This document shows, in pieces, positions 1,105 through 16,362 of a stretch of DNA of 64,000 bases (position 1 is its first letter; every line of letters starts with the position of its first letter). A model generated the notes under the pieces. The model ran no database searches and had not been told where the DNA came from. It was given only the letters and a program-made list of their open reading frames with translations. The stretch is taken from assembly GCA_965263065.1 (NCBI GenBank), contig CBDHGH010000003.1, positions 1,156,537-1,220,536 on the forward strand. The letters are read 5' to 3'. A program made the position numbers and the translations under genes. The stretch is from Dehalococcoidia bacterium (lineage in GTDB: Bacteria > Chloroflexota > Dehalococcoidia > Bin125).

Positions 1105-1154
1105 AGACTCGCGAATGGGGCCGGGCGAACCCGCGTCGGCGACGACGCCGGCGG

Positions 1155-2546: not shown

Positions 2547-2548
2547 CC

Positions 2549-4576
2549 TCAGGAGGGGGCCTCCGGGTCGAGGCCGAGGTCGCGCAGGAACGCCACCGGC
2601 GACGGCTCCCGCCCCAGGAACTCGCGCACCAGGGCGTCGCCGTCGCGGGTCCCGCCGGCTTCCAGGATGCCCCGGCGGTAGGCCCGGCCGATGTCCGGCG
2701 CGGGCAGCCCGGCCTCCTCGAAGCGGGTGAACATGTCGTCGCCGGCGACCTTCGACCAGAGGTAGCCGTAGTAGCCGGCGTCGTAGCCGAAGAGGTGCCC
2801 GAAGCCGGCCTGGAAGTGCGTCCCCTCGGGGAACGGGAACCCGGTGATGGCGTGCAACTCCCGCGCGATGGCGTCCGTGTCCTTGCGGGCGCCGTCGCCG
2901 GGCGCGCCGTCGCCGGGCAAGGGCGGCCCGTGGTAGGCCATGTCGAGTCGCGAGAAGTAGATCTGGCGCAGCGTCGCGATGCCGCTGCTGGCATTCTTGG
3001 CGGCGATCATGCGCCGCACGAGGTCGTCGGGGATGGGGTCGCCGGTGCGGTGGTGGCGGGTGAAGCCGCGCAACACCTCGGGCTGCCAGCACCAGTGCTC
3101 CAGCATCTGCGACGGCGCCTCGACGAAGTCCCGCTCGACGCTGGTGCCCGAGAAGCGCAGGTAGCGCGCCCGCGTCAGCGTCTGGTGCAGGATGTGCCCG
3201 AACTCGTGGAACAGCGTCACGACCTCGGAGTGCTGCAGCAGCGAGGGCGTGGTCGGCGTCGGCTTGGTGAAATTCGCGACGATGGCGCTCACGGGGGCTT
3301 GGTATCCCGATCCGGCGGGCTGCGCCCGCCCGCCCTGCAACGAGAACGCGGCCGCGTGCCCGAACTTGCCGGGGCGGGGATGCAGGTCCATGTAGAAGTG
3401 CCCCACCACGCCGCCCCCGGCCTGACCATCGGTGTCCCGGTCCTCGATGTCGAAGAAGCGCACGTCGGGGTGCCAGGCGCCGGCGCCGTCGCGGGGCAGG
3501 AAGCGCACGCCGGTGAGCCCCTCGTAGACGCGGAAGAGGCCGTCGAGGACGGCGTCGAGGGGGAAGTACTCGGCGACCTCGAAGGCATCGACTTGGTACT
3601 CCTCGCGCAGCAGGCGCTGCGTCAGGTAGCGCCAGTCCCAGATCGCGAAGTCGGCCCCGGCCAGCGCGCGCAGGCGCGCCATGTCGGCCGCCGCCTTGGG
3701 GCGCACGCGGGCCTCGAGATCGCTCAGGAACTCCAGCACGATCTCGGGCGAGCGGGCCACGCGGATCTCGGTCTGGTAGTCGGCCCACGAGCGGTAGCCC
3801 AGGATCGACGCGATCTCGGCGCGCAGGCCGATCGCCTCCTCCAAGAGCGGCAGGTTGGCCTGGGCGGCCTTGTTGTGGTTCTTGCGGAACAGCTCCTCGC
3901 GCAGGCCGCCGTCGTGGGCGTTCTCCATGAAGGGGACCATGTCGGGGTAGTCGAGCGACACGCGATAGCGGGTCTCGCCGTCCCGCTGCTCCGTGGCGAG
4001 CCCGTCGATGTAGGCGTCCGGCAGGCCGTCGAGCTGGGCGCGCGACACGACGATCGCGTCCTCGTACTCGTCGATGTTGCGGCGGAAGGCGATGCCCAGC
4101 TGCACCAAGCGCTCCTTGAGGTCGCGCAGGCGGCGGCGGCGCGCCGCGTCCAGCGACATCCCGTTGCGACGGAAGTCGCGCAGGCCGAAGTCCAGGTAGC
4201 GCGACGCCTCGGGCTCCGTCGCGCGGTCCTGGGAGACGCCGTCGAGCGCGCGCAGGGCGGCGTCGAGCTCCTCGCGGAAGCCCAGCCCGGTCGCGAAGGT
4301 GTCCAGCTTCTCCTCGGCCGCGTGCGCGGTCTCGCGCAGGGCGGCGTCGGGCGAGACCTGGGAGAGGAAGCCGTAGCGGCCGCCGGCCTGCATCAGCAGG
4401 TCGCTGATCTCGTCCACGGGGTGCAGCGTGTTCGCCACGCTGCGCGCGGCGTCGGGCACGGCCGCGATCTCGCCCACGAGCGATTCCGCGCGCACGATCG
4501 CCGAGTCGATGCCCGCCTGCACGTCGGCGGGCGTGACCGACGCGTAGTCGAAGGGGACGGCGTGTGCGGGATCCAT
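2549..4576 (-). CDS. dcp: M3-family zinc metallopeptidase (peptidyl-dipeptidase Dcp / oligopeptidase A-like)
   Basis: 675 aa with the HEFGHILHQ zinc motif. The length is typical of Dcp. The ATG at 4576 is checked in sequence. Confidence 0.85.
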   Translation of the reverse strand: MDPAHAVPFDYASVTPADVQAGIDSAIVRAESLVGEIAAVPDAARSVANTLHPVDEISDLLMQAGGRYGFLSQVSPDAALRETAHAAEEKLDTFATGLGFREELDAALRALDGVSQDRATEPEASRYLDFGLRDFRRNGMSLDAARRRRLRDLKERLVQLGIAFRRNIDEYEDAIVVSRAQLDGLPDAYIDGLATEQRDGETRYRVSLDYPDMVPFMENAHDGGLREELFRKNHNKAAQANLPLLEEAIGLRAEIASILGYRSWADYQTEIRVARSPEIVLEFLSDLEARVRPKAAADMARLRALAGADFAIWDWRYLTQRLLREEYQVDAFEVAEYFPLDAVLDGLFRVYEGLTGVRFLPRDGAGAWHPDVRFFDIEDRDTDGQAGGGVVGHFYMDLHPRPGKFGHAAAFSLQGGRAQPAGSGYQAPVSAIVANFTKPTPTTPSLLQHSEVVTLFHEFGHILHQTLTRARYLRFSGTSVERDFVEAPSQMLEHWCWQPEVLRGFTRHHRTGDPIPDDLVRRMIAAKNASSGIATLRQIYFSRLDMAYHGPPLPGDGAPGDGARKDTDAIARELHAITGFPFPEGTHFQAGFGHLFGYDAGYYGYLWSKVAGDDMFTRFEEAGLPAPDIGRAYRRGILEAGGTRDGDALVREFLGREPSPVAFLRDLGLDPEAPS

Positions 4577-4741
4577 CGCGTGCCTCTCCGCGGCGCGGCC
4601 AGTGGCAACTTAGGTGGCGCCGTCGGCAAGCAGGCTACCAGCGGGCCCCGTCGGCGCTCGACGGCGAGGGCAGGGGCGCTAGTCTCATCCCGCGCGACCA
4701 CCACCTCGTCGTCGCATGCCCGTCCGGAAGGCGGACCCCCC

Positions 4742-6145
4742 ATGACCGACACCGACCTCAACTTCGCGTCGATACGGCAGTTGGCGGCGCTCGTGCGCGA
4801 GAAGCGGATCTCGCCACTGGAGCTGATGGAGCACACGCTGGCGCGCGTCGAGGCACTCAACCCGCGGCTCAACGCACTCGTGCAGTTGGATGCGGAGACC
4901 GCGCGCGCCGAAGCGGCGGCGCAGACGGCGCGGCTCGCCGCCGGCGAGGACCTGGGGCCGCTGGGCGGCGTGCCCGCCGGGGTCAAGGACCTGGAGAACG
5001 CGACGGGGTTCATCACGACACAGGGCTCGCCGCTGCACGCCCACGACGCGCCGGCCGACTTCGACGACGTACACATCGAGCGGCTCAAGGCGGCGGGGGC
5101 GATCGTCGTCGGGAAGACGAACACGCCCGAGTTCGGCCTGGTGCCCTACACCGACAACGAGGTCTTCGGGGTGACGCGCAACCCCTGGAACCTGGAGCGC
5201 ACGCCGGGCGGCTCCAGCGGCGGCTCCTCCGCCGCCCTGGCGTCGGGGATGCTGGCCCTGGCGACGGCCTCGGACGGGGGCGGCTCGATCCGGATTCCGG
5301 CCTGCTACACGGGGCTGTACGGGCTGAAGCCGTCGTTCGGGCGGGTGCCGATCGCGCCGCGGCGGCACGACGCCTGGATGGACACGAGCGTCTACGGGCC
5401 ACTGACGCGGACGGTGGCCGACGCCGCCCTGCTGATGGACGTCATGGCGGGCCCCGACGCGCGCGACCGCAACACGCTGCCGGCGGAGCCGCGGTCGTAC
5501 GGGGAGCGGCTGGCGGAGCCGCTGCCGCGGCTGCGGATCGCGTTCAACCGCACGCTGGGCGTCACGCGGCTGCAGACCGACGTCGAGCGGGAGGTCGAGG
5601 CGGCGGTATCGGTCTTCCGCGAGCTGGGCCACGAGGTGGAGGAGAACCAGGACGCGATCCCGGAGACGGGCCGCTTCTGGAACGACGTGACCGCCTGGAA
5701 CAACGTCGCGATGCACTGGCAGGACTACACGACGCGCCACAACGAGTACGGCGAGACGGTCGTGCAGATCCTCGACCACGGCCTGGGCCTCGACCCGGAG
5801 CGGATGGGGCGCTTCATGGAGCTGCGGCAGACGATCACGGCCTGGACGGCGGAGCTGTTCGGGGACTACGACCTGCTGCTGACCCCGACCCTGCCGACGG
5901 AGGCGTTCGCGGCCTCGGGGCCGGTCCCGCGCACGCTGTACGGCGAGAAGTTCCCCACCATTGCGCTGACCTACCCCTTCAACTTCAGCGGGCATCCGGC
6001 GGCCAGCGTGCCTGCGGGCCTGACCGACGCGGGCCTGCCCTGCGGCTTGCAGATCGTCGGGCCGCGCTTCCGCGACGACCTGGTGCTGCGGGCCTCGCTG
6101 GCCTACGAGGAGGCGCGGCCCTGGGATCGCTGGCCGCGGCTCTGA
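4742..6145 (+). CDS. amidase-signature family amidase (GatA-like)
   Basis: MTDTDLNFASIRQL... carries the amidase signature GGSSGGSSAALASG ... GGSIRIPA and the KDLENATG motif. The ATG at 4742 lies inside the longer spurious ORF 2795..6145. Confidence 0.85.
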   Translation: MTDTDLNFASIRQLAALVREKRISPLELMEHTLARVEALNPRLNALVQLDAETARAEAAAQTARLAAGEDLGPLGGVPAGVKDLENATGFITTQGSPLHAHDAPADFDDVHIERLKAAGAIVVGKTNTPEFGLVPYTDNEVFGVTRNPWNLERTPGGSSGGSSAALASGMLALATASDGGGSIRIPACYTGLYGLKPSFGRVPIAPRRHDAWMDTSVYGPLTRTVADAALLMDVMAGPDARDRNTLPAEPRSYGERLAEPLPRLRIAFNRTLGVTRLQTDVEREVEAAVSVFRELGHEVEENQDAIPETGRFWNDVTAWNNVAMHWQDYTTRHNEYGETVVQILDHGLGLDPERMGRFMELRQTITAWTAELFGDYDLLLTPTLPTEAFAASGPVPRTLYGEKFPTIALTYPFNFSGHPAASVPAGLTDAGLPCGLQIVGPRFRDDLVLRASLAYEEARPWDRWPRL

Positions 6146-6224
6146 CGACCGACCGTGGGCGAGAGCGTCGATATACTCGATGCTCGCCAAGGCACGGGCA
6201 GACGACCACCACATTGAGGGCGCG

Positions 6225-8867
6225 ATGATCACTCACGACGACGCTTCCGGTCCGAACGTTCTCACGCAGGTCGAGGCCGCCGATCGCGCGGCCCTGATCC
6301 ACGGGGTCGAGTACGACCTCGCGCTCTCGCTGCGCGCCGGTCGGCCCGACTACGAGGGCGACGTCACGATCCGCTTTGAGCACCGCGACCCGGCGGCCGG
6401 GGTTTTCCTCGACTGCACGGGCGAGGAGATCGTGCGGCTCGACGTCAACGACGCCGACGCGCTGGAGTCGGAGGGCGTGCGCTGGTCGCGCAACCGGCTG
6501 ACGTTGCCCGGGTCGCTGCTGCGAGCGGGGAACATCGTGCGGGTGGTGTATCGCAACGCCTACGACCACAGCGGCGTGGGGCTGCATCAGTTCCGCGACC
6601 CCGAGGACGGCGCCGAGTACCTCTACACGCAGTTCGAGCCGTACGAGGCGCATCGCATGCTGCCCTGCTTCGACCAGCCCGACATCAAGGCGCGCTACCG
6701 GCTGCGGGTGGCGGCGCCGGCCGACTGGTCGGTGGTGTCGAACGCGCCCGAGACGGGCGCCGCGCCCGCCCCCGGCGCCGACGGCGAGCCGTCGCGCAGG
6801 CTGCACGAGTTCGCCCGGACGCAGCTCTTCAGCCCCTACCTGCTGGCGCTGATCGCGGGGCCGTACCACGTGTTCACCGACCTCCATGTCAGCGATGGGC
6901 ATGTCAGCGATGGGCAGGGCGAGACGCCGCTGGGCATCTACTGCCGCAAGTCGCTGGCGGCGCACATGGACCCTGAGGAGTTCTTCGAGATCACGAAGCA
7001 GGGGCTGACCTTCTTCGCGGAGTTCTTCGACTGGCCCTACCCGTTCGAGAAGTACGACCAACTCTTCGTGCCCGAGTTCAACTTCGGGGCGATGGAGAAC
7101 GTCGGCGCGATCACGTTCAGCGAGCGCATGGTCTTCCGCGACCCGCCCACCGACCTGCAGCGCCTCAACCGGGCGGAGGTCGTGCTGCACGAGATGGCGC
7201 ACATGTGGTTCGGCGACCTGGTGACGATGCGCTGGTGGAACGACCTCTGGCTCAACGAGAGCTTCGCGACGTACATGTCGTACCTGGCGATGCAGGAGGC
7301 GACGCGCTTCCGCGGCGGGGCCTGGCCGGCCTTCCACGCGCGCATGAAGGCCTGGGCCTACGAGCAGGACCAGCTGGTCACGACGCACCCGATCTCGGGC
7401 GAGGTGCCCGACACCGACGCGACCTTCCTCAACTTCGACGGCATCACCTACGGCAAGGGCGCGTCGGTGCTGAAGCAACTCGTCGCCGCGATCGGGCGCG
7501 AGGGCTTCCGCGACGGCATGCGCCACTACTTCCGCACGCACGCCTGGGGCAACACGACGCTGGCCCAATTCCTGGCCGCGCTCTCGCACGGGGCGGGCCG
7601 CGACCTGGAGGAGTGGTCGCAGCTGTGGCTGGAGCAGGCGGGGCTGAACACGCTGAGCGCCGAGTGGGAGGCGCCGGATGGGCGCCTGTCGGCGTTCACG
7701 GTGGCGCAGGGCGCGCCGCCCGACCACCCGACGCTGCGCCCGCACCGCGTCGAGATCGCCCTCTTCGACGTCGGCGCCGACGGCGCGCCGGCGCTGCGCA
7801 CGGCCGTGCCGGCCGATGTCGCCGGCGCGCGCACAGTCATCGAGGAGTTGGTGGGGGCGGCGGCGCCGTCGGCCGCGTTCCCCAACCACGACGACCACGG
7901 CTACGCGAAGATCGCGCTGGACCCGGCGTCGCTGGACTTCGTCCGGGAGCGGCTGGAGCGCTTCGACGATCCGCTGCTGCGGCTGCAGCTCTGGCAGTCG
8001 CTGTGGGAGATGGTGCGGGACCAGCAGTTCCGCTCGACGGAGTGGCTGGCGATGGTGCACGCCAAGCTGCCGCACGAGCCGGCGCTGGAGCTGGTCGCGA
8101 CGACGCTGGCGCACGCGCAGCACGTGATCGGCGCCTACGTGCCGGAGTCGCGCCGCCTGACGGAGGCGCGGGCGCTGTTCGATCTGGCGGCCGAGCAGCT
8201 GCCGCGGGTCGCGAGTCAGGACCTGCGGATCACCTGGGCCCGCAACCTGGTGGGCGTGGCGGCGGAGCCGGCATCGGTGACGGCGGCCTGGCGGCTCGTC
8301 GATGAGGGCAGCGGGATCGAGGGCTTTGAGCTGGACCAGGACATGCGCTGGTCGCTCGCGATCCGGGCCGCGGCGCAGGCGGCGCCCGACGCGGGCGCCC
8401 GCCTGGCCGGCGAGCGCGCGCGGGACGGCAGCGACCGCGGGCAGCGGGCGCTCGAGACGGCCGCGGTGGCGCGCCCGGATGCGGACGTGAAGGCCGAAGC
8501 CTGGACCCGCTTCCGCGAGGACCGCGACTCGTCGCTGCACATCGTCCGATCGGCGATGGGCGGCTTCTGGGCCAACCGCGACTGGTGGCTGGAGAATCCG
8601 GCGCTGCTGAGCGAGTACGTCACGCGTTTCTTCGCCGAGATCCGCGGGATCTTCGAGGGCCGCGACAAGGACTTCGCGACCAGCTTCTTCCGCCAGCTCT
8701 ACCCGTCGCAGATCCCGACCGAGGACACGATCAGCCGCACGCGGGCGGTGCTCGACTCGCTGACGGAGGGCGAGGTGCTGCTGCGCCGCAGCCTGCGCGA
8801 GGCGCTGGACGAGGCGCAGCGGGCGCAGGCCTGCCGGGCCTTCGCGATCTCAAAAGCCAAGAGTTAA
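6225..8867 (+). CDS. pepN: aminopeptidase N (M1 family)
   Basis: The gluzincin motif HEMAHMWFGDLVTMRWWNDLWLNESFATY (HExxH...E) is present, and the size is ~880 aa. An alternative ATG exists at 6180. The one at 6225 follows a GAGGG Shine-Dalgarno. Confidence 0.85.
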   Translation: MITHDDASGPNVLTQVEAADRAALIHGVEYDLALSLRAGRPDYEGDVTIRFEHRDPAAGVFLDCTGEEIVRLDVNDADALESEGVRWSRNRLTLPGSLLRAGNIVRVVYRNAYDHSGVGLHQFRDPEDGAEYLYTQFEPYEAHRMLPCFDQPDIKARYRLRVAAPADWSVVSNAPETGAAPAPGADGEPSRRLHEFARTQLFSPYLLALIAGPYHVFTDLHVSDGHVSDGQGETPLGIYCRKSLAAHMDPEEFFEITKQGLTFFAEFFDWPYPFEKYDQLFVPEFNFGAMENVGAITFSERMVFRDPPTDLQRLNRAEVVLHEMAHMWFGDLVTMRWWNDLWLNESFATYMSYLAMQEATRFRGGAWPAFHARMKAWAYEQDQLVTTHPISGEVPDTDATFLNFDGITYGKGASVLKQLVAAIGREGFRDGMRHYFRTHAWGNTTLAQFLAALSHGAGRDLEEWSQLWLEQAGLNTLSAEWEAPDGRLSAFTVAQGAPPDHPTLRPHRVEIALFDVGADGAPALRTAVPADVAGARTVIEELVGAAAPSAAFPNHDDHGYAKIALDPASLDFVRERLERFDDPLLRLQLWQSLWEMVRDQQFRSTEWLAMVHAKLPHEPALELVATTLAHAQHVIGAYVPESRRLTEARALFDLAAEQLPRVASQDLRITWARNLVGVAAEPASVTAAWRLVDEGSGIEGFELDQDMRWSLAIRAAAQAAPDAGARLAGERARDGSDRGQRALETAAVARPDADVKAEAWTRFREDRDSSLHIVRSAMGGFWANRDWWLENPALLSEYVTRFFAEIRGIFEGRDKDFATSFFRQLYPSQIPTEDTISRTRAVLDSLTEGEVLLRRSLREALDEAQRAQACRAFAISKAKS

Positions 8868-8875
8868 GGACTGAC

Positions 8876-9733
8876 ATGGAACGCTTCGCTGCCATTGATG
8901 TCGAAACCGCGAATGAGCGGCTCGAGTCAATCTGCTCGGTCGGACTGGCTCTATTCGAGAACGGCGAAGTCACTGACGAGTTGTACACAGTCATTGATCC
9001 TCACGAAGAGTTCTCCGGGATGAACATCATGATCCACGGTATCCACCCGGAAGATGTGCAGGGAGCCCCAACCTTTGCGGAGGTACTGCCGAAGCTGATT
9101 GAGTTCGTTGGTGATGCACCGGTCATCCATCACACGCATTTCGATCGGACCGCAGTGCGACAGGCGGCCTCGCGATGGAACATCCAAGCACCCCAATGGG
9201 AATGGATCGATTCTGCGAGAGTGACGCGACGAGTGTGGCCAGATCGCCGCAAGCGCGGGTACGGGCTCATGCCGGTATGCGAGATGATCGGGTACGATTT
9301 TGAGCACCACCACGCCTTGGAAGACGCCAAAGCGGCGGGGCACATCATTCTTGCCGCTTTGGAGAAGGTCGGCACGGATATTCCGCTGACCGCGATGCTC
9401 GACATCAATCCGACTGCGAGGAGCCGCGAGCGATTCGCGGGCCAGGCCACCGGTGAAGGGCCCCTGGACGGCGAAGTCGTCGTGTTCACTGGGACACTGG
9501 TCATCCCACGACGGGAGGCCTCGGCCATAGCGCGCGGCTTGGGCTGCACAGTAGCGGACGCTGTGAATCGAAAAACGACCCTTGTGGTTGTAGGTGATCA
9601 GGATCTGAGTAAACTCGCGGGGGCAGAGAGGAGCAGCAAACATCGGCGTGCCGAAGCGTTGATCGCCGACGGATACGACATCCGTATCCTGTCAGAGGCT
9701 GATTTCATCGCCATGCTGCCTGAGAACGGGTAG
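8876..9733 (+). CDS. DnaQ-like DEDDh 3'-5' exonuclease fused to a C-terminal BRCT domain
   Basis: The N-terminal exonuclease motifs are FAAIDVETAN (Exo I), IHHTHFDR (Exo II) and HHALEDAKA (Exo III, DEDDh). The C-terminal ~90 aa (VVFTGTL...TLVVVGD...) has the BRCT pattern. The gene is ~52 % GC against ~72 % around it. Confidence 0.8.
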   Translation: MERFAAIDVETANERLESICSVGLALFENGEVTDELYTVIDPHEEFSGMNIMIHGIHPEDVQGAPTFAEVLPKLIEFVGDAPVIHHTHFDRTAVRQAASRWNIQAPQWEWIDSARVTRRVWPDRRKRGYGLMPVCEMIGYDFEHHHALEDAKAAGHIILAALEKVGTDIPLTAMLDINPTARSRERFAGQATGEGPLDGEVVVFTGTLVIPRREASAIARGLGCTVADAVNRKTTLVVVGDQDLSKLAGAERSSKHRRAEALIADGYDIRILSEADFIAMLPENG

Positions 9734-9922
9734 CTACCATGCAGATCACCACCTGTTGCAAGTGTCCGGTCAAAGGCATGACTACCAACTTGGCGCCCTC
9801 GTCGACGCTTCGCGGTGTTCAACGCGAGCCAGTCCGCTTGCGCAGCCTAATCCGAGTCACTTATTAGCGGTCTCGACATCGGCGGCGCATCAACCGTTGT
9901 CGAGGAGCTAGCAGGGCAAGGC

Positions 9923-10690
9923 ATGGATCGCTTTCCCGACCGCGCGTGGGATCCCGGCCGCGCCGACATCGCGCGGCTGCTGCGCGACGCCGTCGTGACG
10001 GACTCCGGCCTGATCCCCTCCGCGTCGAACTACGTCTTCGTGCTGAGCCTGGCCGCCCCCGGCGACGCGGACGGCGATCCGGGCCCCGGCGCGGCGGTCT
10101 ACAAGCCCGCGCGCGGGGAAGCGCCGCTGTGGGACTTCCCGCCCGACATCTACCGCCGCGAGGTCGCCAGCTACGTCGTCTGCGAGGCGATCGGCTGGCG
10201 GCTGGTGCCGCCCACGATCGTGCGCGACGACGGCCTGCCGCACGGCCCGGGCTCGCTGCAAGCCTTCATCCCCAGCGACTACACGCGCACCTACTTCGAG
10301 CTGCGCGACGTGCACGCCGACGCGATGCGCCGCATGGCGACGTTCGACTGGCTGACGAACAACGCCGACCGCAAGGGCGGCCACGTTTTGCTGGGCGAGG
10401 ACGGCACGATCTGGGGCATCGACAACGCGCTCTCGTTCCACGTCGAGGACAAGCTGCGCACCGTGATCTGGGACTACGCCGGCGAGCCGGTGCCCGAGCC
10501 CCTGCTGTCCGACGTGGAGGCGTTCCTGCCGCAGCTGCGCCCGGAGTCCGCCCTGTGGGCGTCGTTGTCGGAGTACCTGGACGCGGCCGAGTGCGCCGCG
10601 CTGCGCGGCCGGGCCGAGCAGATCCTGGAGTCGCGCGTCTTCCCGCAGCCGCCCGAGGGGCGCCGTCCCTACCCCTGGCCGCTGATCTAG
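9923..10690 (+). CDS. SCO1664-family protein (PI3/PI4-kinase-like / HipA_C-like fold)
   Basis: 255 aa with ASNYVFVLSL, DWLTNNADRKGGHVLL and GIDNALSFH (DNxDRH-like catalytic loop). The family name is from memory of TIGR03843. Confidence 0.6.
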   Translation: MDRFPDRAWDPGRADIARLLRDAVVTDSGLIPSASNYVFVLSLAAPGDADGDPGPGAAVYKPARGEAPLWDFPPDIYRREVASYVVCEAIGWRLVPPTIVRDDGLPHGPGSLQAFIPSDYTRTYFELRDVHADAMRRMATFDWLTNNADRKGGHVLLGEDGTIWGIDNALSFHVEDKLRTVIWDYAGEPVPEPLLSDVEAFLPQLRPESALWASLSEYLDAAECAALRGRAEQILESRVFPQPPEGRRPYPWPLI

Positions 10691-10776
10691 GTCGCCCTCT
10701 GCTTGGACGCCCACAAGGGGCGCCCCGACAGTGTCCCCGCCGTCCGTCGGGGCGACCCTTGTGGTCGCCCACGAAC

Positions 10777-11544
10777 TCAGACGTCGTGGGCGTTGCGGAC
10801 GAGGATGCGCCCGGGCCCGCCGTCGAGGGGGATCGTCTTGACAGCCAGGGCGACGCGGTTGCCCGCGTCGAGGGCGTCCCAGTAGGTCGCGAGCACGTGG
10901 CCGACGCCGCCCGCGAGCGGCAGCCAGAGCGGATCGCCGCGGAACGGCGGCAGCGGATCGCCGTCGCCGGCGTAGGTCGTGATGCCCAGGCCCAGGCCGG
11001 GCGGCGGCAGCGCCGGGCGCGTCGTGATGCGGTCCGACTGCGCGGCGTCGGCGTCGGCGGCGCGCAGGATGCTGATCGCCATCCGTGGGGACACGCCGTG
11101 CATGTGGCCGCGCAGGTCGAGCAGACCGCTGATGCGGGGCGTGTAGTTGGGGGCGTCGTCCTCGCGCTCGCGGGTGGCGAGGGCGTCCTCGAAGCTCCCG
11201 CCCGCGGCCAGCCCCTCGACGATCGTGCGCGACTGGTCGCCGTTGGAGACGACGTAGAGGTCGGGCAGTTCGAGCATCGCCTCGTAGATCACGTTGGTCG
11301 GATCGCTGAGCTTGCCGGGGTCGACGGCCTCGGTGCGCATCGACGAACCGTCCACGACGAAGCGGCGGTTCCGGCTGTTCTCGCTGCGCCCCATGATCCA
11401 GTAGACCTGCAGCCAGGCCGCCCCGTCGGCGCTGCGACCGATGACGAGGCCGCGGCCCGGATAGGGGTTCTCGCGCAGGTGGCGCTGCAGATTGCCCTCG
11501 GCCACGGCGGGCAGGCCCGCGTCGGGGATGGGCATGGCGGACAT
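10777..11544 (-). CDS. purO: PurO-like IMP cyclohydrolase (archaeal type), translationally coupled to purH
   Basis: 255 aa, N-terminus ...ENPYPGRGLVIGRSADGAAWLQVYWIMGRSENSRNRRF. Its ATG overlaps the upstream AICARFT-only purH stop (TGATG). The context (purH lacking its cyclohydrolase domain) supports the call; sequence memory of PurO is weak. Confidence 0.55.
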   Translation of the reverse strand: MSAMPIPDAGLPAVAEGNLQRHLRENPYPGRGLVIGRSADGAAWLQVYWIMGRSENSRNRRFVVDGSSMRTEAVDPGKLSDPTNVIYEAMLELPDLYVVSNGDQSRTIVEGLAAGGSFEDALATREREDDAPNYTPRISGLLDLRGHMHGVSPRMAISILRAADADAAQSDRITTRPALPPPGLGLGITTYAGDGDPLPPFRGDPLWLPLAGGVGHVLATYWDALDAGNRVALAVKTIPLDGGPGRILVRNAHDV

Positions 11545-12720
11545 CAGTGCCGGAACAATCGCAGGCCCGAGAGGGCCATGGTCATGCCGTACTCGTCGGC
11601 GGCGGCGGTGACGCCCGCGTCGGCGATGCTGCCGCCGGGCTGCAGGACGTAGCGCACGGCGCTGGCCTGCGCGCGGTCGATGTTGTCGCGGAAGGGCAGG
11701 AAGGCGTCGTGACTGAGGACGGTGCGGAAGCCCGTAATCCAGTCGCGGCGTTCGGCGTCGGAGAGGGGCTCGACGGGGGCGGTGAAGTGGTCGCGGAGGT
11801 GGGCGCGCTCGGGCTCGGACAGCTCCGCCCAGGCGATGAACTGCTCGCGGGCGGTGAAGCGCTCGGGCCGCTTGATGCCGGCGACGAAGGGCAGCGCCAG
11901 CACGCGCGGGTGCTGTTGCAGCATCCAGCGGTCGGCCTTGCCGCAGGCGATGCGCGAGCAGTGAATGCGCGACTGCTGCCCCGCGCCCAGCCCGATCACC
12001 TGACCGTCGGCGGCGAGGCAGACGGAGTTCGACTGCGTGTAGCGCAGCGCGATCGTCGCGACCATGAGGTCGCGGACGGCGTCGGGCGGGAAGTCGCGCT
12101 CACGGGTGACGACGTTGCCCAGCAGGTCCGGCGTGATGGGCGCGCTGTCGGCGGGCGCCTCCAGCGTCAGCCCGAAGGCCGAGCGGCGCTCGATGGCGGG
12201 CGTCTCGAAGTCGGGGTCGGCCTGGATGACCAGGTAGCGGCCGCCCTTCTTGGCGCGCAGGATCTCCAGGGCGTCGTCGTCGAAGGCGGGGGCGACGATG
12301 CCGTCCGACACCTCGCGCTTGAGCACCTGCGCAAGCGACACGTCGACGCGGTCGCTGACGGCCGCGACGTCGCCGTAGGAGGAGACGAGGTCGCCGCCGC
12401 GGGCGCGCACGTAGGCCGTCGCGACGGGGGAGAGTTCGCGGTCGCCGACCTGGTAGGCCGCGCGCAGGGCGTCGGAGAGGGGCAGCCCGATGGCGGCCCC
12501 GGCGGGGCTGACGTGCTTGAAGCTGGCCCCGGCGGGCTCGCCCAGCGCGGCGCGCAGCTCCCGCACGAGTTGCCAGGCGGAGATCGCGTCGAGCAGGTTG
12601 ATGTAGCCGGGGGCCCCGTTGAGGACGCGGAACGGACCGGGACCGTCCCCATCGACGACGGCGCGGGCCGGCGTCTGATGCGGGTTCAGGCCGTAGCGCA
12701 GCGCGATCTCGCGATCCATG
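11544..12720 (-). CDS. purH: phosphoribosylaminoimidazolecarboxamide formyltransferase (AICARFT domain only, no IMPCH/MGS domain)
   Basis: MDREIALRYGLNPHQ, FKHVSPAGAA and SHDAFLPFRDNID ... GGSIAD motifs are present. It is ~390 aa from the ATG at 12720 (GGAGGA 7 nt upstream). The ORF extends to 12806 but that start lacks a Shine-Dalgarno. Confidence 0.85.
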
Positions 12721-12802
12721 CCAGCCGTCCTCCGCGCCGTGGTTCGGGCCGCCGGTCCAGCCGGCGCCGCCGATCCCTGGGTACCGAGGCGCGGCCCGCC
12801 CG

Positions 12803-13678
12803 TCAACCGACGAGGTCGCGCAGCGCCCCGCCGATCTCCGCGTGCCGGAACGCGTAGCCCGACTCCCGCGCCCGATCGGCGCTCACGCGCTGGCTCGCGG
12901 TGAGCACGCCGGCGCGCTCACCGAGCAGCAGCCGCAGCGCGATCGGGGGTGTCGGCATCAGGGCGGGACGGCGCAGCGCCGCGCCCAGCGCCTTGCCGAA
13001 GGCGGCGTTGGTCACCGGCGCCGGCGCGACGCCGTTCAGCGGCCCGTCCAGGCTGGGGCTGTCGATGGCGTGCAGGATCAGCCCCACGATGTCGTCGCGG
13101 TGGATCCAGGGCATGTACTGCCGCCCGCGACCGATGGGCCCGCCGGCGCCCAGCTTGAACGGCGGCAGCAGCTTCGCCAGCGCGCCGCCCTCGCGCGCCA
13201 GCACGACGCCGGTGCGCAGGGTCACGGTGCGCACTCCGGCCCCCTGCGCGGCCGCCTCCCAATCGACGCAGAGCCGCGCCAGGAAGTCGTCGCCGGGCGC
13301 GCTCGCCTCGGTCAACAGTTCGTCGCCGCGCGATCCGTAGATGCCGACGGCGGAGCCGGCGACGAGCACGGCCGGCTTCCCGGCCGTGGCCTGGATGGCA
13401 GCGACGATCCGCCGGGCCGTGTCGATGCGGCTGTCGCGCAGCTCCCGCTTGCGCCCGGCCGACCAGCGCTTGTCGGCGACGCCGGCCCCGGCCAGATGCA
13501 CGACCGCGTCCGCCTCGGCGATCGCGGCCGGGAGATCGTCCCAGGATCGCCAGTCGATGTCGCCGCCGTGGGCCCTGGGCGCGCGGGTGATGCCGGCCAC
13601 GTCATCGCCGCGGTCGCGCAGCGCCCCCGCCAGCGCCCCGCCGATCGTCCCGCTCGCGCCCGTCACGACCACACGCAT
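12803..13678 (-). CDS. TIGR01777-family NAD-dependent epimerase/dehydratase (YfcH-like, DUF1731 C-terminus)
   Basis: MRVVVTGASGTIGGAL Rossmann motif is present. The start is the internal ATG at 13678; the upstream ORF extension is Arg/Pro low-complexity. Confidence 0.8.
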   Translation of the reverse strand: MRVVVTGASGTIGGALAGALRDRGDDVAGITRAPRAHGGDIDWRSWDDLPAAIAEADAVVHLAGAGVADKRWSAGRKRELRDSRIDTARRIVAAIQATAGKPAVLVAGSAVGIYGSRGDELLTEASAPGDDFLARLCVDWEAAAQGAGVRTVTLRTGVVLAREGGALAKLLPPFKLGAGGPIGRGRQYMPWIHRDDIVGLILHAIDSPSLDGPLNGVAPAPVTNAAFGKALGAALRRPALMPTPPIALRLLLGERAGVLTASQRVSADRARESGYAFRHAEIGGALRDLVG

Positions 13679-13724
13679 GCGCCCATCCTTTCGCGTTGAC
13701 TGCCCGGCGCCCCGGCGACGCCGC

Positions 13725-14213
13725 TCAGGCCGGCGCCTTCGGCTCCTCGTCCGGCCCATCGGAGACGTCGTCGGGCGCGTCGTCGGACGCGGGCGCGGGC
13801 GGGGGCGGCCAGTCCGGCAGGCCGCCGGGGGGAACGTCCAGCCCAAGCGCTTTCCCGAGTTGCTCGGCCGTGGCGTCGTCGAGGCCGCCCAGGTCCTGGA
13901 ACTGGCGCGCGAGATCCCGCAGCTGGTCCTGCGTCACGCCCATGCTCTGCATCGTCTCGCGCACGAGCCGGCGGACCTCGTCGGTGTCGCCGCGGATCAG
14001 CGCGTCGGCCAGCTCGAGCTGCGTCTCGACGGCGCGGAAGCCGGCCCGGCGCTCGGTCTCGTTCTCGGTCGCGAGGAGGGTCGAGGCGAGGCGGGTGAAC
14101 AGGGTGGTGGTGCGGGCGATGCGCATGCGGTCGTCGGGGTGGGGCGGGAACTGCCCCGTGACCGTGACTTCGACCCCGGTGCGCTTGTCGGATGCGACGT
14201 ACTGATCTGCCAT
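13725..14213 (-). CDS. hypothetical protein with acidic Pro-rich C-terminus
   Basis: 162-aa ORF with no recognisable motif, sitting between the epimerase gene and ABC operon 1. Coding-like composition. Confidence 0.45.
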   Translation of the reverse strand: MADQYVASDKRTGVEVTVTGQFPPHPDDRMRIARTTTLFTRLASTLLATENETERRAGFRAVETQLELADALIRGDTDEVRRLVRETMQSMGVTQDQLRDLARQFQDLGGLDDATAEQLGKALGLDVPPGGLPDWPPPPAPASDDAPDDVSDGPDEEPKAPA

Positions 14214-14270
14214 GCCCCCAGCATATCCCCGTGGGGCATCGTGGGGGCGCGGCGTCCCCGCCCCTTCCGG

Positions 14271-15167
14271 CTAGTCGGCGCCGCGCAGGCGCGGATCCAG
14301 GAGGTCGCGCAGGACGTCCCCCAGCAGATTGAAGGATAGCACCGTCAGCACGATGGCCATCCCCGGGAAGATCGCCGGCCAGGGGTGCGTGGCCAGGTAG
14401 AGCTGTCCCCCCTTGAGCATGGTCCCCCAGGAGGGGTCGGGGGGCTGCGTCCCCAGTCCCAGGAAGGAGAGGGCCGCCTCGATGATGATCGCGAAGCCGA
14501 TGCCCAGCGACATCTGCACCAGCACGGGCGCCAGCACGTTCGGCGCGATGTGCCGGAAGAGGATGCGCGGGGTGGCCGCCCCCATCGCCTCGGCCGCCAT
14601 GACGTAATCGTTCTCCTTGGCCGACAGGGTGCTGCCGCGCACGATGCGGGCGTACAGGGGAACGAACACGACGCCGATCGCGATCATCACGTTGACCGAG
14701 CTGGAGCCCAACACGGCGATCATGATCAGGGCCAGCAGCAAGGCCGGGTAGGCGTACAGCGCGTCCATCACGCGCATCAGCCCCTCGTCCTTGCGGCCGC
14801 CGACGTAGCCCGCGACCAGGCCGTAGGGCAGCCCGATGCCCACCCCGATGCCCACGGAGATCAGCCCCACGACCAGGGCGGTCCGCGAAGCGTGGACGAG
14901 GCGGGAGTAGGTATCGCGGCCCAGCTTGTCGGCGCCGAACCAATGCTCCCCCGTCGGCGGGCTGAGGCCCGCGTCGCCGTCGAGCGCGATGGGATCATGG
15001 GTGGCGACGACCCCCGGGATGATCGCCGCGACGAGGACCACCAGCACGATCGCCAGGCTCACGACCCCCGCGGGCCGCTGACGGAAGCGCCGCGCGAACT
15101 CCCGCTCGCGCGCCCCACGGCGCTCGCGGAGTTGCAGGGGCGGGGCGCCGGTCTGCCGGTCACTCAT
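14271..15167 (-). CDS. ABC transporter permease (DppC/OppC-like)
   Basis: Six predicted TM segments, the EAA-like loop (AAEAMGAATPRILFRHIAPN) and an N-terminal cytoplasmic extension. It overlaps the upstream permease by 8 nt. Confidence 0.85.
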   Translation of the reverse strand: MSDRQTGAPPLQLRERRGAREREFARRFRQRPAGVVSLAIVLVVLVAAIIPGVVATHDPIALDGDAGLSPPTGEHWFGADKLGRDTYSRLVHASRTALVVGLISVGIGVGIGLPYGLVAGYVGGRKDEGLMRVMDALYAYPALLLALIMIAVLGSSSVNVMIAIGVVFVPLYARIVRGSTLSAKENDYVMAAEAMGAATPRILFRHIAPNVLAPVLVQMSLGIGFAIIIEAALSFLGLGTQPPDPSWGTMLKGGQLYLATHPWPAIFPGMAIVLTVLSFNLLGDVLRDLLDPRLRGAD

Positions 15168-16104
15168 AGCGGATCCGCGGATCCAGGAACGCGTAGGACA
15201 CGTCGACGGCCAGATTCGTCAGGGCGACGGCGCCGGCCAGCATGACCCCGATCGCCTGCACCGTCTGGAGCTCACGGTTGAAGACGGAGTCGACCAAGAG
15301 CTTGCCGACGCCCGGCAAGTTGAACACGCTCTCGATGATGACGAAGCCGCCCACGATCGTGGAGACCTGGATCCCCATCACCGTGACGACGGGGATGAGC
15401 GCGTTGCGGAACGCGTGCCGCACGATCACGCTCCGCTCGCGCAGGCCCTTGGCGTAGGCGGTGCGCACGTAGTCCTGCCGCAGCACGTCCACCAGGGCGG
15501 CGCGGGTCTGCCGCGCCAGGATCGCCGCCTGGGTCACACCGACCGCGAAGGCCGGCAAGGCGACCGAGCGCAAGTTCTGGACCGGGTCGTCGAGGAAGCT
15601 GGTGAAGCCGACGGCCGGGAACCAGCGGAATTGCACCGAGAAGAGCAGAATCAGCATCAGCGCCAGCCAGAAGTTCGGGATGGCGGCCCCCAGCACGGCG
15701 AGCGCGGTGCCCCCGTAGTCGAGGATGGTGTTCGGCCGCGCCCCGGCGAGCAGCCCCAGCGGGATCCCGATCGCGGTCGCGATCAGCATCGCCAGGATGC
15801 CCAGTTCGATACTGACCTCCAGGCGCTTGGCGATCAGGTCGCTGACTTCCTTGCCCGCGCGCGCACTCCGGCCGAGGTCACCCTGCAGCGCGTCCCCCAC
15901 CCAGTCGAAGTAGCGCACGACGACCGGCCGGTTGAGTCCCAGTTGCTCCCGCAGCGCCTCCAGGTGCCGGGTATCCGCCTCCATGCCCAGCATGGCGATG
16001 GCCAAGTCGCCGGGCAGCAGCGCCACGGCGAAGAACGTGATCGCCGAGATCAGGATGAGGACCGGGATCGTGACCAGGAACCGCCGGGCGATGTAGGTGG
16101 TCAT
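15160..16104 (-). CDS. ABC transporter permease (DppB/OppB-like)
   Basis: MTTYIARRFLVTIPVLILIS..., the RTAYAKGLRERSVIVRHAFRNAL EAA motif, 314 aa. Confidence 0.85.
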   Translation of the reverse strand: MTTYIARRFLVTIPVLILISAITFFAVALLPGDLAIAMLGMEADTRHLEALREQLGLNRPVVVRYFDWVGDALQGDLGRSARAGKEVSDLIAKRLEVSIELGILAMLIATAIGIPLGLLAGARPNTILDYGGTALAVLGAAIPNFWLALMLILLFSVQFRWFPAVGFTSFLDDPVQNLRSVALPAFAVGVTQAAILARQTRAALVDVLRQDYVRTAYAKGLRERSVIVRHAFRNALIPVVTVMGIQVSTIVGGFVIIESVFNLPGVGKLLVDSVFNRELQTVQAIGVMLAGAVALTNLAVDVSYAFLDPRIRYE

Positions 16105-16109
16105 CGTGT

Positions 16110-16360
16110 GCCCTCATGGGGGGCCTCGCTCCCTGACCCCCTCTCCCTGAGGGAGGGGGGGGGGGTGAGGGGGCCTCGGCGGGCGCGGGCCCTCCCCCTA
16201 GCCCTCTCCCAGAGGGAGAGGGAACCGGAGCCCCCTCTCCCTCTGGACGATGGAGAGGGGGAACGTGAAGCGTGCGCCATCACCCCTCCTCCTCCGGTCC
16301 CCCCTCTCCATTGCTCCGCAATGGAGAGGGGGTTAGGGGGTGAGGTCGGGGGGGCCGGCG
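16110..16360. repeat. cluster of GC-rich palindromic (REP-like) hairpin repeats, stem core CCCCTCTCC/GGAGAGGGG
   Basis: Examples: CCCTCTCCC-AGA-GGGAGAGGG (perfect), CCCCCTCTCC-(11 nt)-GGAGAGGGGG, CCCCCTCTCCATTGC-TCC-GCAATGGAGAGGGGG (15-bp stem), and an 11-G run. The cluster sits between the substrate-binding-protein and DppB genes. Confidence 0.75.
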
Positions 16361-16362
16361 GG

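What the first reader, a model, noticed from the sequence alone, without database searches (positions are those of the whole stretch)
8868..9922. ~1 kb low-GC island carrying a DEDDh exonuclease-BRCT fusion gene
From the pepN stop to the next gene, GC content drops from ~72 % to ~50-55 %. This is visible by eye: 'gagttaaggactgacatggaacgcttcgctgccattgatgtcgaaacc...'. The single gene encodes a DnaQ-like 3'-5' exonuclease with all three Exo motifs and an H-type motif III, fused to a BRCT domain.

The compositional anomaly argues for recent horizontal acquisition. Stand-alone proofreading-type exonucleases with a phosphopeptide/DNA-end-binding BRCT module are plausible DNA-repair or anti-phage factors. 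The 190-nt low-GC spacer downstream (9734..9922) contains a 41-codon Cys-rich ORF (9742..9867, MQITTCCKCPVKG...) of unknown significance.
Basis: seen in the sequence. Interest (0 to 1): 0.6.

Follow-up and report, generated by a model that had tools for sequence, protein, structure and literature searches.

The report
Imported exonuclease–BRCT gene patch
A 1 kb stretch of lower-GC DNA carrying one intact DnaQ-like exonuclease–BRCT gene was recombined into this high-GC Dehalococcoidia genome from a related lineage, where the same gene comes and goes at the same spot; its domain make-up is known, but what it does is untested.

Summary
Window 8847-9909 (1,063 bp) has 59% GC, not 50-55%, against 72% for the window. 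The gene's GC3 is 68% versus 95-97% in both neighbours. It is the lowest-GC kilobase of the window.

The eight nearest sequenced species, down to 94% nucleotide identity in the flanks, have only 45-131 bp between pepN and the SCO1664-family gene. The patch is therefore a recent gain.

It holds one intact gene (8876-9733, 285 aa). The product is a DEDDh exonuclease (D8, E10, D90, H145, D150) fused to a BRCT domain (T205, G206, K255).

The donor was probably another Dehalococcoidia lineage whose locus reads pepN–exo–MOSC–SCO1664. The patch carries a donor-type pepN tail. The "Cys-rich ORF" is the first 25 codons of the donor's MOSC gene. Two further scrambled gene fragments follow it.

In the donor-type clade the gene is present in 7 of 34 species. 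It occurs in 0-2 copies and in at least three deep allele groups that disagree with host relatedness.

Relatives elsewhere sit on an ICE, prophages, plasmids and IS- or integrase-flanked islets. In Gram-positive temperate phages they lie between repressor and integrase.

The function is inferred only: a BRCT-targeted 3'-5' DNA exonuclease, probably involved in host–mobile-DNA conflict. It is a new member of a known kind.

The parts
8847..9909 (+). Whole imported patch (1,063 bp, about 59% GC). It replaces 37 bp that lie between pepN and the SCO1664-family gene in the closest genome.
   Evidence: blastn shows window 1-8846 = L001 1169-9950 (94.0% identity) and window 9910-14263 = L001 9988-14286 (93.4%).
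6180..8867 (+). pepN (M1 aminopeptidase, 895 aa), the native left flank. Only its last 6 codons and stop are donor-derived.
   Evidence: Pfam Peptidase_M1_N, Peptidase_M1 and ERAP1_C. GC3 is 95.4%. It is 94% identical in amino acids to L001.
8847..8867 (+). Donor-type pepN tail (ISKAKS*). It is low in GC and unlike L001/L002 (ASADVE*), but like the far clade (L010 IAQTGS*, L020 ASQATS*).
   Evidence: Junction listing: window GCGATCTCAAAAGCCAAGAGTTAA versus L010 GCGATCGCTCAAACTGGGAGTTAA.
8866..8870 (+). Shine-Dalgarno-like AAGGA, overlapping the pepN stop codon and 5 nt upstream of the ATG. It implies co-transcription with pepN.
   Evidence: Read directly from the sequence. No sigma-70-like promoter or intrinsic terminator was found in 8600-10100.
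8876..9733 (+). Intact CDS of 285 aa: DEDDh 3'-5' exonuclease fused to BRCT.
   Evidence: The window protein retains all 61 columns that are invariant across the 46 aligned family members. The AF2 model has pLDDT 85.
8882..9370 (+). Exonuclease domain (residues ~3-165), with catalytic D8, E10, D90, H145 and D150.
   Evidence: Pfam RNase_T at 6-154. Alignment to the T. maritima PolC exonuclease domain 2p1j. Foldseek TM-scores (target-normalised) are 0.82 to ExoX and 0.80 to E. coli epsilon.
9455..9718 (+). BRCT domain (residues ~194-281), with conserved T205-G206 and K255.
   Evidence: Pfam BRCT at 194-254. Matches the LigA BRCT domain 1l7b. F204, G206 and K255 are invariant and T205 is conserved in at least 90% of sequences.
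9739..9813 (+). Remnant of the first 25 codons of a MOSC-domain gene.
   Evidence: tblastn with the L020 MOSC protein gives 16/25 identical residues, E 2e-4, the best hit in the window. blastn gives 74-89% identity to the MOSC 5' ends of many far-clade loci. The L020 gene matches PF03473.
9808..9886 (-). Inverted, degenerate copy of the first ~30 codons of an exonuclease gene. It translates as AADVETANK*LGLGCASGLARVEHREAS.
   Evidence: Inverted repeat 8897-8969 / 9808-9880, 71% complementary. Local alignment score is 41, against 14.8±2.3 (maximum 27) in shuffles, and tblastn gives 50% identity to residues 6-33.
9873..9909 (+). 37-nt fragment of the interior of a far-clade-type pepN (LDIGGASTVVEEL).
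   Evidence: 32/37 identical to L019 and L035 pepN, against 24/34 to the window's own pepN at the homologous position.
9923..10690 (+). SCO1664-family gene (255 aa), the native right flank.
   Evidence: NCBIfam TIGR03843 at 237.6 bits, above the 172.4-bit cutoff. It is 97% identical to L001. GC3 is 96.9%.

Best explanation
SHOWN. Window 8847-9909 is a recently imported patch of DNA in a 72%-GC Dehalococcoidia (Chloroflexota) chromosome. It carries one intact gene for a 285-aa DnaQ/epsilon-type DEDDh 3'-5' exonuclease fused to a C-terminal BRCT domain. The gene sits directly behind pepN with its own ribosome-binding site.

INFERRED FROM ANATOMY.
- The donor was another Dehalococcoidia lineage in which this gene lies at the same place (pepN–exo–MOSC–SCO1664).
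- Integration used the conserved 3' end of pepN as a homologous anchor on the left and an illegitimate, patchwork join on the right (homology-facilitated illegitimate recombination).
- That join left a donor-type pepN tail, a 25-codon MOSC stub, an inverted exonuclease stub and a pepN-interior scrap.
- The gene belongs to a flexible, mobile family. In the donor-type clade it is gained, lost, duplicated, swapped between deep allele lineages and left to decay at this one site. Elsewhere it rides on an ICE, prophages, plasmids and IS- or integrase-flanked islets.

INFERRED FUNCTION, by homology to DEDDh enzymes and to BRCT domains that bind 5'-phosphate DNA ends or partner proteins.
- The BRCT domain positions the protein at DNA ends or nicks, or on a DNA-bound partner.
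- The Mg2+-dependent exonuclease domain then removes nucleotides from the adjacent 3' end.
- I consider a role in conflict between host and incoming mobile DNA the most likely biological purpose. This could be exclusion or defence expressed from the resident genome or prophage, or the mirror-image establishment or counter-defence role.

Confidence by layer: about 0.85 for the origin and integration story, 0.8 for the biochemical class, and only about 0.35-0.4 for the conflict role.
For: Recent import:
- The site is empty (45-131 bp) in all 8 nearest species, including L001 at 94% nucleotide identity in the flanks.
- GC3 is 68%, against 95-97% in both neighbours and 0.93-0.98 in native genes.

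Donor synteny:
- The pepN tail is of the donor type.
- The MOSC stub matches at protein and DNA level.
- In 34 far-clade species MOSC always follows pepN, and the exonuclease gene lies between them in 7. The L093 metagenome contig shows the same arrangement.
- The NJ tree places the window protein with the Dehalococcoidia sequences (bootstrap 65), apart from the alphaproteobacterial cluster.
- No tRNA gene, integrase or terminal repeats flank the patch.

Flexibility at the site:
- Hosts L012 and L020 are 92% identical in the SCO1664-family protein, but their exonuclease proteins are 43% identical.
- L010 is 98% identical to L012 in that protein and lacks the gene.
- L016 and L093 carry tandem pairs.
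- L014 carries a decayed copy and L036 carries different cargo.
- Within allele groups dN/dS is 0.09-0.12, so intact copies are under selection.

Mobile-element association:
- An ICE, between traG and trbB.
- A prophage, next to terminase and portal genes.
- IS or integrase neighbours.
- 148 plasmid records and 70 phage records hold a match.
- In S. pneumoniae IPP44 and S. aureus I73 the gene lies in the lysogeny module, between a cI-like HTH gene and the integrase.
- PHROG 192 matches at E 1.8e-41.
- One plasmid copy sits near ArdC-like, DUF736 and Fic genes, and another near a TIR-domain gene.

Biochemical class: Pfam and NCBIfam hits, catalytic and BRCT pocket residues conserved, and a DEDDh fold in the model.
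Against: - No experiment exists on this subfamily, and a literature search found none.
- The PADLOC candidate-defence hit (PDC-S48) covers only the exonuclease domain, so it is not evidence of membership.
- In this genome, and in the donor-type clade, the gene has no mobile-element or defence neighbours. It simply follows a housekeeping aminopeptidase.
- The one characterised bacterial exonuclease–BRCT protein, mycobacterial DnaQ, is a replication proofreader (PMC11348249).
- No close donor was found: the best hit among 5.8 billion clustered proteins is 55% identical. The donor lineage is inferred from synteny scars and a weakly supported tree node.
- The microhomology joins are inferred without the parental sequences.
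Confidence: 0.6

Rival explanations
1. The protein is an accessory replication proofreader or repair exonuclease, like mycobacterial DnaQ. Its BRCT domain would dock the exonuclease on the replicase and so improve fidelity or help forks through lesions. Transfer would be incidental.
For: It has the same two-domain architecture. [quoted passage not shown] NCBIfam's best model is a 'DNA polymerase III subunit epsilon' exonuclease–BRCT family, PRK06195, at 195 bits. The gene is under purifying selection.
Against: The gene is absent from the 8 nearest species and from 27 of 34 far-clade species, so it is not a core replication function. Homologues are repeatedly mobile-element cargo and lie in phage lysogeny modules. 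The score is below the PRK06195 cutoff (195 versus 373). The mycobacterial model PRK06063 scores only 48.7 bits, on the exonuclease domain alone. The C-terminus (…DFIAMLPENG) shows no clamp-binding-type motif by inspection.
Confidence: 0.22
2. The protein is an establishment or counter-defence factor of mobile elements. The nuclease would process or protect the incoming element's DNA, or destroy host defence nucleic acids. The chromosomal copies would then be domesticated or stranded cargo.
For: An ICE copy sits between traG and trbB. A plasmid copy lies next to ArdC-like zincin, DUF736 and Fic genes. Plasmid and phage carriage is widespread.
Against: In temperate phages the gene is on the repressor/integrase strand, which is typical of lysogen-expressed genes rather than early entry genes. 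The Dehalococcoidia copies are chromosomal, sit behind pepN, have no mobile-element backbone nearby, and are still under purifying selection.
Confidence: 0.15
3. The gene is ancestral at this locus. It was retained here and lost from all sequenced close relatives, so this is not horizontal transfer.
For: Orthologues occupy the same locus in a sister clade.
Against: This needs independent clean deletions in 8 of 8 near species, including one at 94% nucleotide identity. A long-resident gene should have GC3 near 95%, not 68%. The donor-type pepN tail, and scraps that match far-clade pepN better than the window's own, argue for import.
Confidence: 0.04
4. The patch is an assembly artefact: a metagenome chimera that spliced reads of a co-occurring relative into this contig.
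For: The host lineage is known only from MAGs. The insert derives from a related lineage at a conserved locus, which is where chimeras tend to form.
Against: Both flanks return to the same high-GC genome. The insert ends in a mosaic of degenerate fragments (71% and 86% identity), including an inverted piece, which a read-switch would not create. The ORF is intact and retains all family-invariant residues.
Confidence: 0.04

Closest known systems
Mycobacterial DnaQ (Rv3711c / MSMEG homologue): exonuclease + BRCT + clamp-binding motif, a second replicative proofreader (PMC11348249)
   Same: An N-terminal DEDDh exonuclease fused to a C-terminal BRCT domain, of similar size. The BRCT domain probably acts as the targeting module.
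   Different: Sequence relationship is weak: NF004719 scores 48.7 bits on the exonuclease domain only, against a cutoff of 389. No C-terminal clamp-binding motif was seen. The window's family is accessory and mobile rather than a conserved chromosomal gene.
NCBIfam NF004844 / PRK06195 'DNA polymerase III subunit epsilon' (exonuclease–BRCT proteins of about 309 aa)
   Same: It is the best-scoring curated model, and both domains match in two stretches.
   Different: The score is 195 bits against a cutoff of 373, so the window protein is a related subfamily and not an equivalog. The model's name is an annotation, not a tested function.
PHROG 192 'DNA polymerase exonuclease subunit', and the exonuclease genes in the lysogeny modules of S. 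pneumoniae and S. aureus temperate phages
   Same: The match is full length (residues 1-281, E 1.8e-41). Identity is 30-38% over 98% of the protein. The architecture is the same.
   Different: Those copies lie in prophages between repressor and integrase. The window copy is chromosomal, sits behind pepN, and has no phage genes nearby.
PADLOC candidate system PDC-S48, and the Cas-associated DEDDh (Cas2–DnaQ) exonuclease
   Same: The exonuclease domain is closest to these models (E 7e-34 and 1e-25). The fold resembles the S. thermophilus DnaQ domain in PDB 8h2f, which I take from memory to be the Cas2-fused DnaQ.
   Different: Only the first ~180 of 411 or 512 PDC-S48 model positions are matched, in this protein and in all homologues tested. 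The genes adjoining the patch are not cas genes.
Homology-facilitated illegitimate recombination, as described for natural transformation (named from my own knowledge, not from a paper read here)
   Same: One homologous anchor (the pepN 3' end), one illegitimate join, a small deletion of recipient DNA (37 bp), and foreign DNA from a relative.
   Different: The mechanism is inferred from scars only. The right junction is unusually complex: three scrambled fragments that abut or overlap by 5-8 nt.

Membership tests
DEDDh (DnaQ/RNase T) 3'-5' exonuclease superfamily, Pfam PF00929 | Exo I D-x-E, Exo II D, and Exo III H-x4-D | tested here: met
   D8 and E10 (DVETAN), D90 (HFD), H145 and D150 (HHALED). 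These align to PolC exonuclease 2p1j and are invariant or at least 90% conserved in 46 homologues.
DEDDh (DnaQ/RNase T) 3'-5' exonuclease superfamily, Pfam PF00929 | HMM score above the gathering threshold, and an RNase H-like DEDD fold | tested here: met
   52.9 bits against a cutoff of 24. In the AF2 model the domain has pLDDT around 90. Foldseek TM-scores are 0.82 to ExoX and 0.80 to epsilon.
DEDDh (DnaQ/RNase T) 3'-5' exonuclease superfamily, Pfam PF00929 | Metal-dependent 3'-5' exonuclease activity | not testable with these tools
   This needs a biochemical assay.
BRCT domain, Pfam PF00533 | HMM score above the gathering threshold, and a beta-alpha-beta-beta-alpha-beta-alpha topology | tested here: met
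   31.4 bits against a cutoff of 21.3, at residues 194-254. The domain matches LigA BRCT 1l7b at E 2.5e-7. Model secondary structure is E201-205, H212-221, E236-239, H254-264, E270-273, H274-279.
BRCT domain, Pfam PF00533 | Phosphate-binding pocket residues: (S/T)-G after beta1 and K in alpha2. The correspondence to BRCA1 S1655, G1656 and K1702 is from my own knowledge. | tested here: met
   T205-G206 and K255 are present. G206 and K255 are invariant and T205 is at least 90% conserved across the family. Actual binding was not tested.
NCBIfam NF004844 (PRK06195), exonuclease–BRCT 'Pol III epsilon' equivalog | Whole-protein score at or above the curated cutoff of 373 bits | tested here: not met
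   195.3 bits.
Mycobacterial-type DnaQ (NF004719 / PRK06063) | Score at or above the 389-bit cutoff | tested here: not met
   48.7 bits, on residues 3-164 only.
Mycobacterial-type DnaQ (NF004719 / PRK06063) | C-terminal beta-clamp-binding motif | tested here: inconclusive
   By inspection the C-terminus (…ILSEADFIAMLPENG) is the last BRCT helix, with no extra tail. No formal motif search was run. In mycobacteria the motif is dispensable.
PADLOC PDC-S48 candidate defence protein | Match across the whole model (411 or 512 positions) | tested here: not met
   Only model positions ~4-182 are matched, in the window protein and in 8 homologues.
Cas-associated DEDDh (Cas2–DnaQ) | Fusion to, or adjacency with, cas genes or a CRISPR array | tested here: not met
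   The neighbours are pepN, an SCO1664-family gene, IMP-cyclohydrolase-like, AICARFT-like and epimerase genes. CRISPR arrays were not searched for across the whole window.
Classical genomic island or integrative element | Integrase or transposase, a tRNA or att site, and terminal direct or inverted repeats | tested here: not met
   There are no tRNA genes in the 64 kb. No integrase or transposase is among the neighbours. No terminal repeats occur at 8847 or 9909; the only long inverted repeat is the internal exonuclease stub.
PHROG 192 (phage 'DNA polymerase exonuclease subunit') | A significant full-length profile match. This library has no curated cutoff. | tested here: met
   E 1.8e-41, 143.8 bits, residues 1-281 against model positions 105-364 of 397.

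The most novel reading that the evidence does not exclude
The exonuclease–BRCT protein is a self-sufficient, single-gene immunity or exclusion module. Its BRCT domain would recognise 5'-phosphorylated ends or nicks of incoming linear DNA, and its DEDDh domain would resect them. The module would be traded as a cassette: at a fixed chromosomal hot spot behind pepN in marine or sponge Dehalococcoidia, and in prophage lysogeny modules, ICEs and plasmids in other phyla. Deep allele lineages would be maintained by conflict with mobile elements.
Probability: 0.25. Interest if true: 0.65.

Novelty: new member of a known kind. Interest (0 to 1): 0.42.

Why it matters
The domain architecture is already catalogued and one version has been characterised in mycobacteria, so the gene itself is not new.

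Three things are useful here:
- **Transfer scar.** This is a cleanly resolved, very recent gene transfer between uncultivated Dehalococcoidia lineages. The junction scars point to homology-anchored illegitimate recombination rather than to a mobile element.
- **Hot spot.** The pepN 3' end is shown to be a single-gene hot spot. It can be empty, hold one or two exonuclease–BRCT genes from deep allele lineages, hold a decaying copy, or hold other cargo.
- **Mobile family.** This widespread, uncharacterised subfamily is habitually carried by ICEs, plasmids and prophages, and sits in lysogeny modules in S. aureus and S. pneumoniae phages. Those phages offer tractable systems for testing whether it is a defence, counter-defence or fidelity factor.

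Tried and rejected
- **Site-specific insertion.** I looked for terminal repeats, target-site duplications, tRNA genes and an integrase or transposase. None was found. The one long inverted repeat turned out to be a degenerate inverted stub of an exonuclease gene.
- **The 42-codon Cys-rich ORF as a real small protein.** Rejected. It has no Pfam hit, and it matches the first 25 codons of the MOSC gene that follows the exonuclease gene in the donor-type clade.
- **An RNA element in the spacer.** There is no Rfam match at E≤1 in 8500-10200.
- **Own promoter or terminator.** The sigma-70 and intrinsic-terminator scans found nothing. These consensus patterns may not apply to Chloroflexota.
- **PADLOC PDC-S48 membership.** Rejected on coverage. 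No paper mentions PDC-S48 in the library.
- **Literature on exonuclease–BRCT in defence or prophages.** Nothing relevant was found beyond the mycobacterial DnaQ papers.
- **A close donor.** None exists among 5.8 billion protein clusters; the best is 55% identity. DNA-level matches to the loci are only 65-68% in the gene.
- **The MAFFT junction alignment** misplaced the left flank. It was replaced by blastn and manual junction listing.
- **dN/dS for the window allele.** It could not be estimated because dS is saturated against all relatives.
Full report
**1. The observation**

The window has 71.9% GC. The minimum over 1,055-bp windows is 58.6% at 8851, against a mean of 71.9% and sd of 3.0%.

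Only single 200-bp windows touch 55%.

Third-codon-position GC is far more telling. It is 67.8% in the gene, against 95.4% in pepN and 96.9% in the downstream gene. Native genes throughout the window have GC3 of 0.93-0.98.

The gene is 8876-9733 (+) and encodes 285 aa. An AAGGA ribosome-binding site overlaps the pepN stop codon.

**2. The gene product**

- Pfam finds RNase_T at residues 6-154 (52.9 bits) and BRCT at residues 194-254 (31.4 bits, above the 21.3 cutoff).
- The DEDDh residues are all present: D8 and E10 (DVETAN), D90 (HFD), and H145 and D150 (HHALED). They align to the PolC exonuclease domain 2p1j. In 46 homologues E10, D90, H145 and D150 are invariant and D8 is at least 90% conserved.
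- The BRCT domain keeps the T205-G206 and K255 positions. I recall these as the phosphate-pocket positions of BRCT domains. G206 and K255 are invariant in the family.
- An AlphaFold2 model has mean pLDDT 85, with a disordered linker at residues 177-187. Its N-terminal domain superposes on ExoX (TM 0.82) and E. coli epsilon (TM 0.80).
- No full-length exonuclease–BRCT match appeared in the sequence search or among the top 50 Foldseek hits.

**3. Host and the empty site**

A scan of species-representative genomes with the downstream SCO1664-family protein shows that the host is a high-GC Dehalococcoidia lineage known from MAGs. Several of the bins have names such as COS3, IRC, RHO and SB066x, which I take to be sponge-derived from the naming alone.

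The closest genome, L001, is colinear with the window:
- window 1-8846 matches L001 1169-9950 at 94.0% nucleotide identity;
- window 9910-14263 matches L001 9988-14286 at 93.4%.

Window 8847-9909 (1,063 bp) therefore replaces 37 bp of L001.

All eight species of this near clade have only 45-131 bp between pepN and the SCO1664-family gene (SCO1664-protein identity 97% down to 60%). None has an exonuclease gene there. Together with the un-ameliorated GC3, this makes the patch a recent gain in the window's lineage.

**4. Where the patch came from**

In a more distant clade (SCO1664-protein identity about 52-57%), the locus reads pepN–[exonuclease–BRCT]–MOSC–SCO1664. All 34 species have the MOSC-domain gene (PF03473). 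Seven have an exonuclease–BRCT gene directly after pepN.

The window's patch carries the scars of that arrangement:
- **pepN tail.** The last six pepN codons (ISKAKS*) are low in GC. They are unlike L001/L002 (ASADVE*) but like the far clade. The window reads GCGATCTCAAAAGCCAAGAGTTAA, and L010 reads GCGATCGCTCAAACTGGGAGTTAA.
- **MOSC stub.** It shares 16 of 25 residues with L020 (E 2e-4, the best hit in the window). At DNA level it is 74-89% identical to many far-clade MOSC 5' ends.
- **Inverted exonuclease stub.** Positions 9808-9886 on the minus strand are a degenerate copy of the first ~30 codons of an exonuclease gene (AADVETANK*LG…). The alignment score is 41, against 14.8±2.3 in shuffles.
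- **pepN interior scrap.** Positions 9873-9909 are a 37-nt piece of the interior of a far-clade-type pepN. It matches L019 and L035 at 32 of 37 positions, against 24 of 34 for the window's own pepN.

The fragments abut or overlap by 5-8 nt.

The window protein also groups with the Dehalococcoidia sequences in an NJ tree, rather than with the tight alphaproteobacterial cluster. Bootstrap support is only 65.

There is no tRNA gene, integrase, transposase or terminal repeat at the patch.

I infer integration by recombination anchored on the DNA-conserved pepN 3' end, with an illegitimate, template-switch-like join on the right. No close donor is sampled: the best protein identity among 5.8 billion clusters is 55%.

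**5. A flexible site**

In the far clade the exonuclease–BRCT gene behaves as a flexible gene at a fixed site.
- L010 and L012 are 98% identical in the SCO1664-family protein, yet only L012 has the gene.
- L012 and L020 are 92% identical in that protein but carry exonuclease proteins only 43% identical.
- At least three deep allele groups exist.
- L016 and the metagenome contig L093 carry two copies in tandem.
- L014 holds a decayed copy, and L036 holds unrelated cargo, an HTH/SEC-C protein.
- Within allele groups dN/dS is 0.09-0.12, so intact copies are under purifying selection.

The window copy retains all 61 columns that are invariant across the 46 aligned family members.

**6. The family elsewhere**

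Most of the top hits that carry a source name are alphaproteobacterial proteins of about 286 aa. All six contexts I inspected lie beside mobile-element genes:
- prophage terminase and portal genes in Roseobacter litoralis;
- an IS in Paracoccus;
- an ICE, between traG and trbB;
- IS110 and IS3 elements with an Xre-type gene;
- a tyrosine integrase;
- an IS5-like element.

tblastn finds matches in 148 plasmid records and 70 phage records, and PHROG 192 matches over the full length.

In S. pneumoniae phage IPP44 and S. aureus phage I73 the gene lies between the cI-like HTH gene and the integrase, on their strand. By general knowledge this is the position typical of lysogen-expressed accessory genes.

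On plasmids the gene neighbours ArdC-like, DUF736 and Fic genes, a thermonuclease gene, or a TIR-domain gene.

**7. How it probably works**

Shown:
- the catalytic and fold features of a DEDDh exonuclease;
- a BRCT domain with conserved pocket residues;
- tight placement behind pepN with its own RBS and no detectable promoter, which suggests co-transcription.

Inferred:
- BRCT tethers the enzyme to 5'-phosphorylated DNA ends or nicks, or to a DNA-bound partner.
- The exonuclease then trims the nearby 3' end.

Presence/absence variation, allele swapping and carriage by mobile elements lead me to favour a role in host–mobile-DNA conflict, either exclusion or defence, or conversely establishment. 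My confidence in that role is only about 0.35-0.4.

The main rival is an accessory proofreader like mycobacterial DnaQ, where the BRCT domain is essential (PMC11348249). The patchy distribution argues against it, as does the weak similarity to that family: 48.7 bits against a cutoff of 389.

**8. Comparison with known families**

The protein is a member of the DEDDh and BRCT superfamilies and matches PHROG 192. Three memberships fail:
- It is not an equivalog of PRK06195 (195 bits against 373).
- It is not an equivalog of mycobacterial DnaQ.
- It is not a member of the PADLOC candidate PDC-S48. Those models are matched only over their first ~180 of 411 or 512 positions, in this protein and in eight homologues.

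It is also not Cas-associated here.

**9. Verdict**

The low-GC patch and its gene are real, and recent horizontal gain is well supported. The patch is not a classical island. It is a recombinational import of a flexible locus from a related lineage, and the "Cys-rich ORF" is a junction scar.

The protein is a new member of a known but functionally uncharacterised subfamily. Interest is moderate. It comes from the hot-spot dynamics, and from the testable idea that exonuclease–BRCT genes in prophage lysogeny modules, ICEs and this chromosomal site act in DNA conflict.

Noticed in passing
window 51046-54435 (-): A 1,130-aa leucine-rich-repeat protein with many LRR_1, LRR_8 and LRR_4 hits. Its GC is lower than the window's (67%; GC3 0.81 versus ~0.95). 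It is the third low-GC stretch in the window (~51.6-53.5 kb). It looks like the eukaryote-like repeat proteins I associate with sponge symbionts, and it may be another acquired or fast-evolving gene.
   Followed up: partly
window ~14263-17850 (low-GC stretch 16026-17806): This region is not colinear with the closest genome L001. It covers two oligopeptide ABC permease genes and the long N-terminal extension of an 838-aa SBP_bac_5 solute-binding protein. It is a second variable region near the finding.
   Followed up: partly
L016 7525-8106 and 8354-9190; L093 3773-4798 and 5001-5876: Two exonuclease(–BRCT) genes lie in tandem behind pepN. In L016 the first is a 193-aa copy with only the exonuclease domain, from allele group A, and the second is a full-length group B copy. 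In L093 the two products are 341 aa and 291 aa. The site accumulates paralogues.
   Followed up: partly
L014 8773-9221: A decayed exonuclease–BRCT gene sits between pepN and MOSC. The Exo II motif (VVHHGHFDRSAI) and the BRCT C-terminus (…RILSETDFLTMIEG) survive in separate frames, and the middle is deleted. This shows loss in place.
   Followed up: partly
L036 1158-1865: Different cargo occupies the same pepN–MOSC site. It is a 235-aa protein with an HTH-like N-terminus and a C-terminal SEC-C-like CPCNSGKKxKxCH motif.
   Followed up: no
L018 7404-8176; L021 7549-7899: An extra 350-770 bp lies between pepN and the exonuclease gene. It contains internally repeated, REP/MITE-like sequence; in translation the motif PANAGVCSVPxAPTTAAR appears twice in L018.
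   Followed up: no
L090 (S. pneumoniae phage IPP44) 3989-4912; L091 (S. aureus phage I73) 3995-4915: Full-length homologues (30-34% identity) sit in the lysogeny module, between the cI-like HTH repressor gene and the integrase, on the same strand. These are tractable systems for testing function.
   Followed up: partly
L093 7874-8296: A weak-scoring PIN-domain gene and a small upstream ORF, which could be a toxin–antitoxin pair, lie just downstream of the SCO1664-family gene in one far-clade contig.
   Followed up: no
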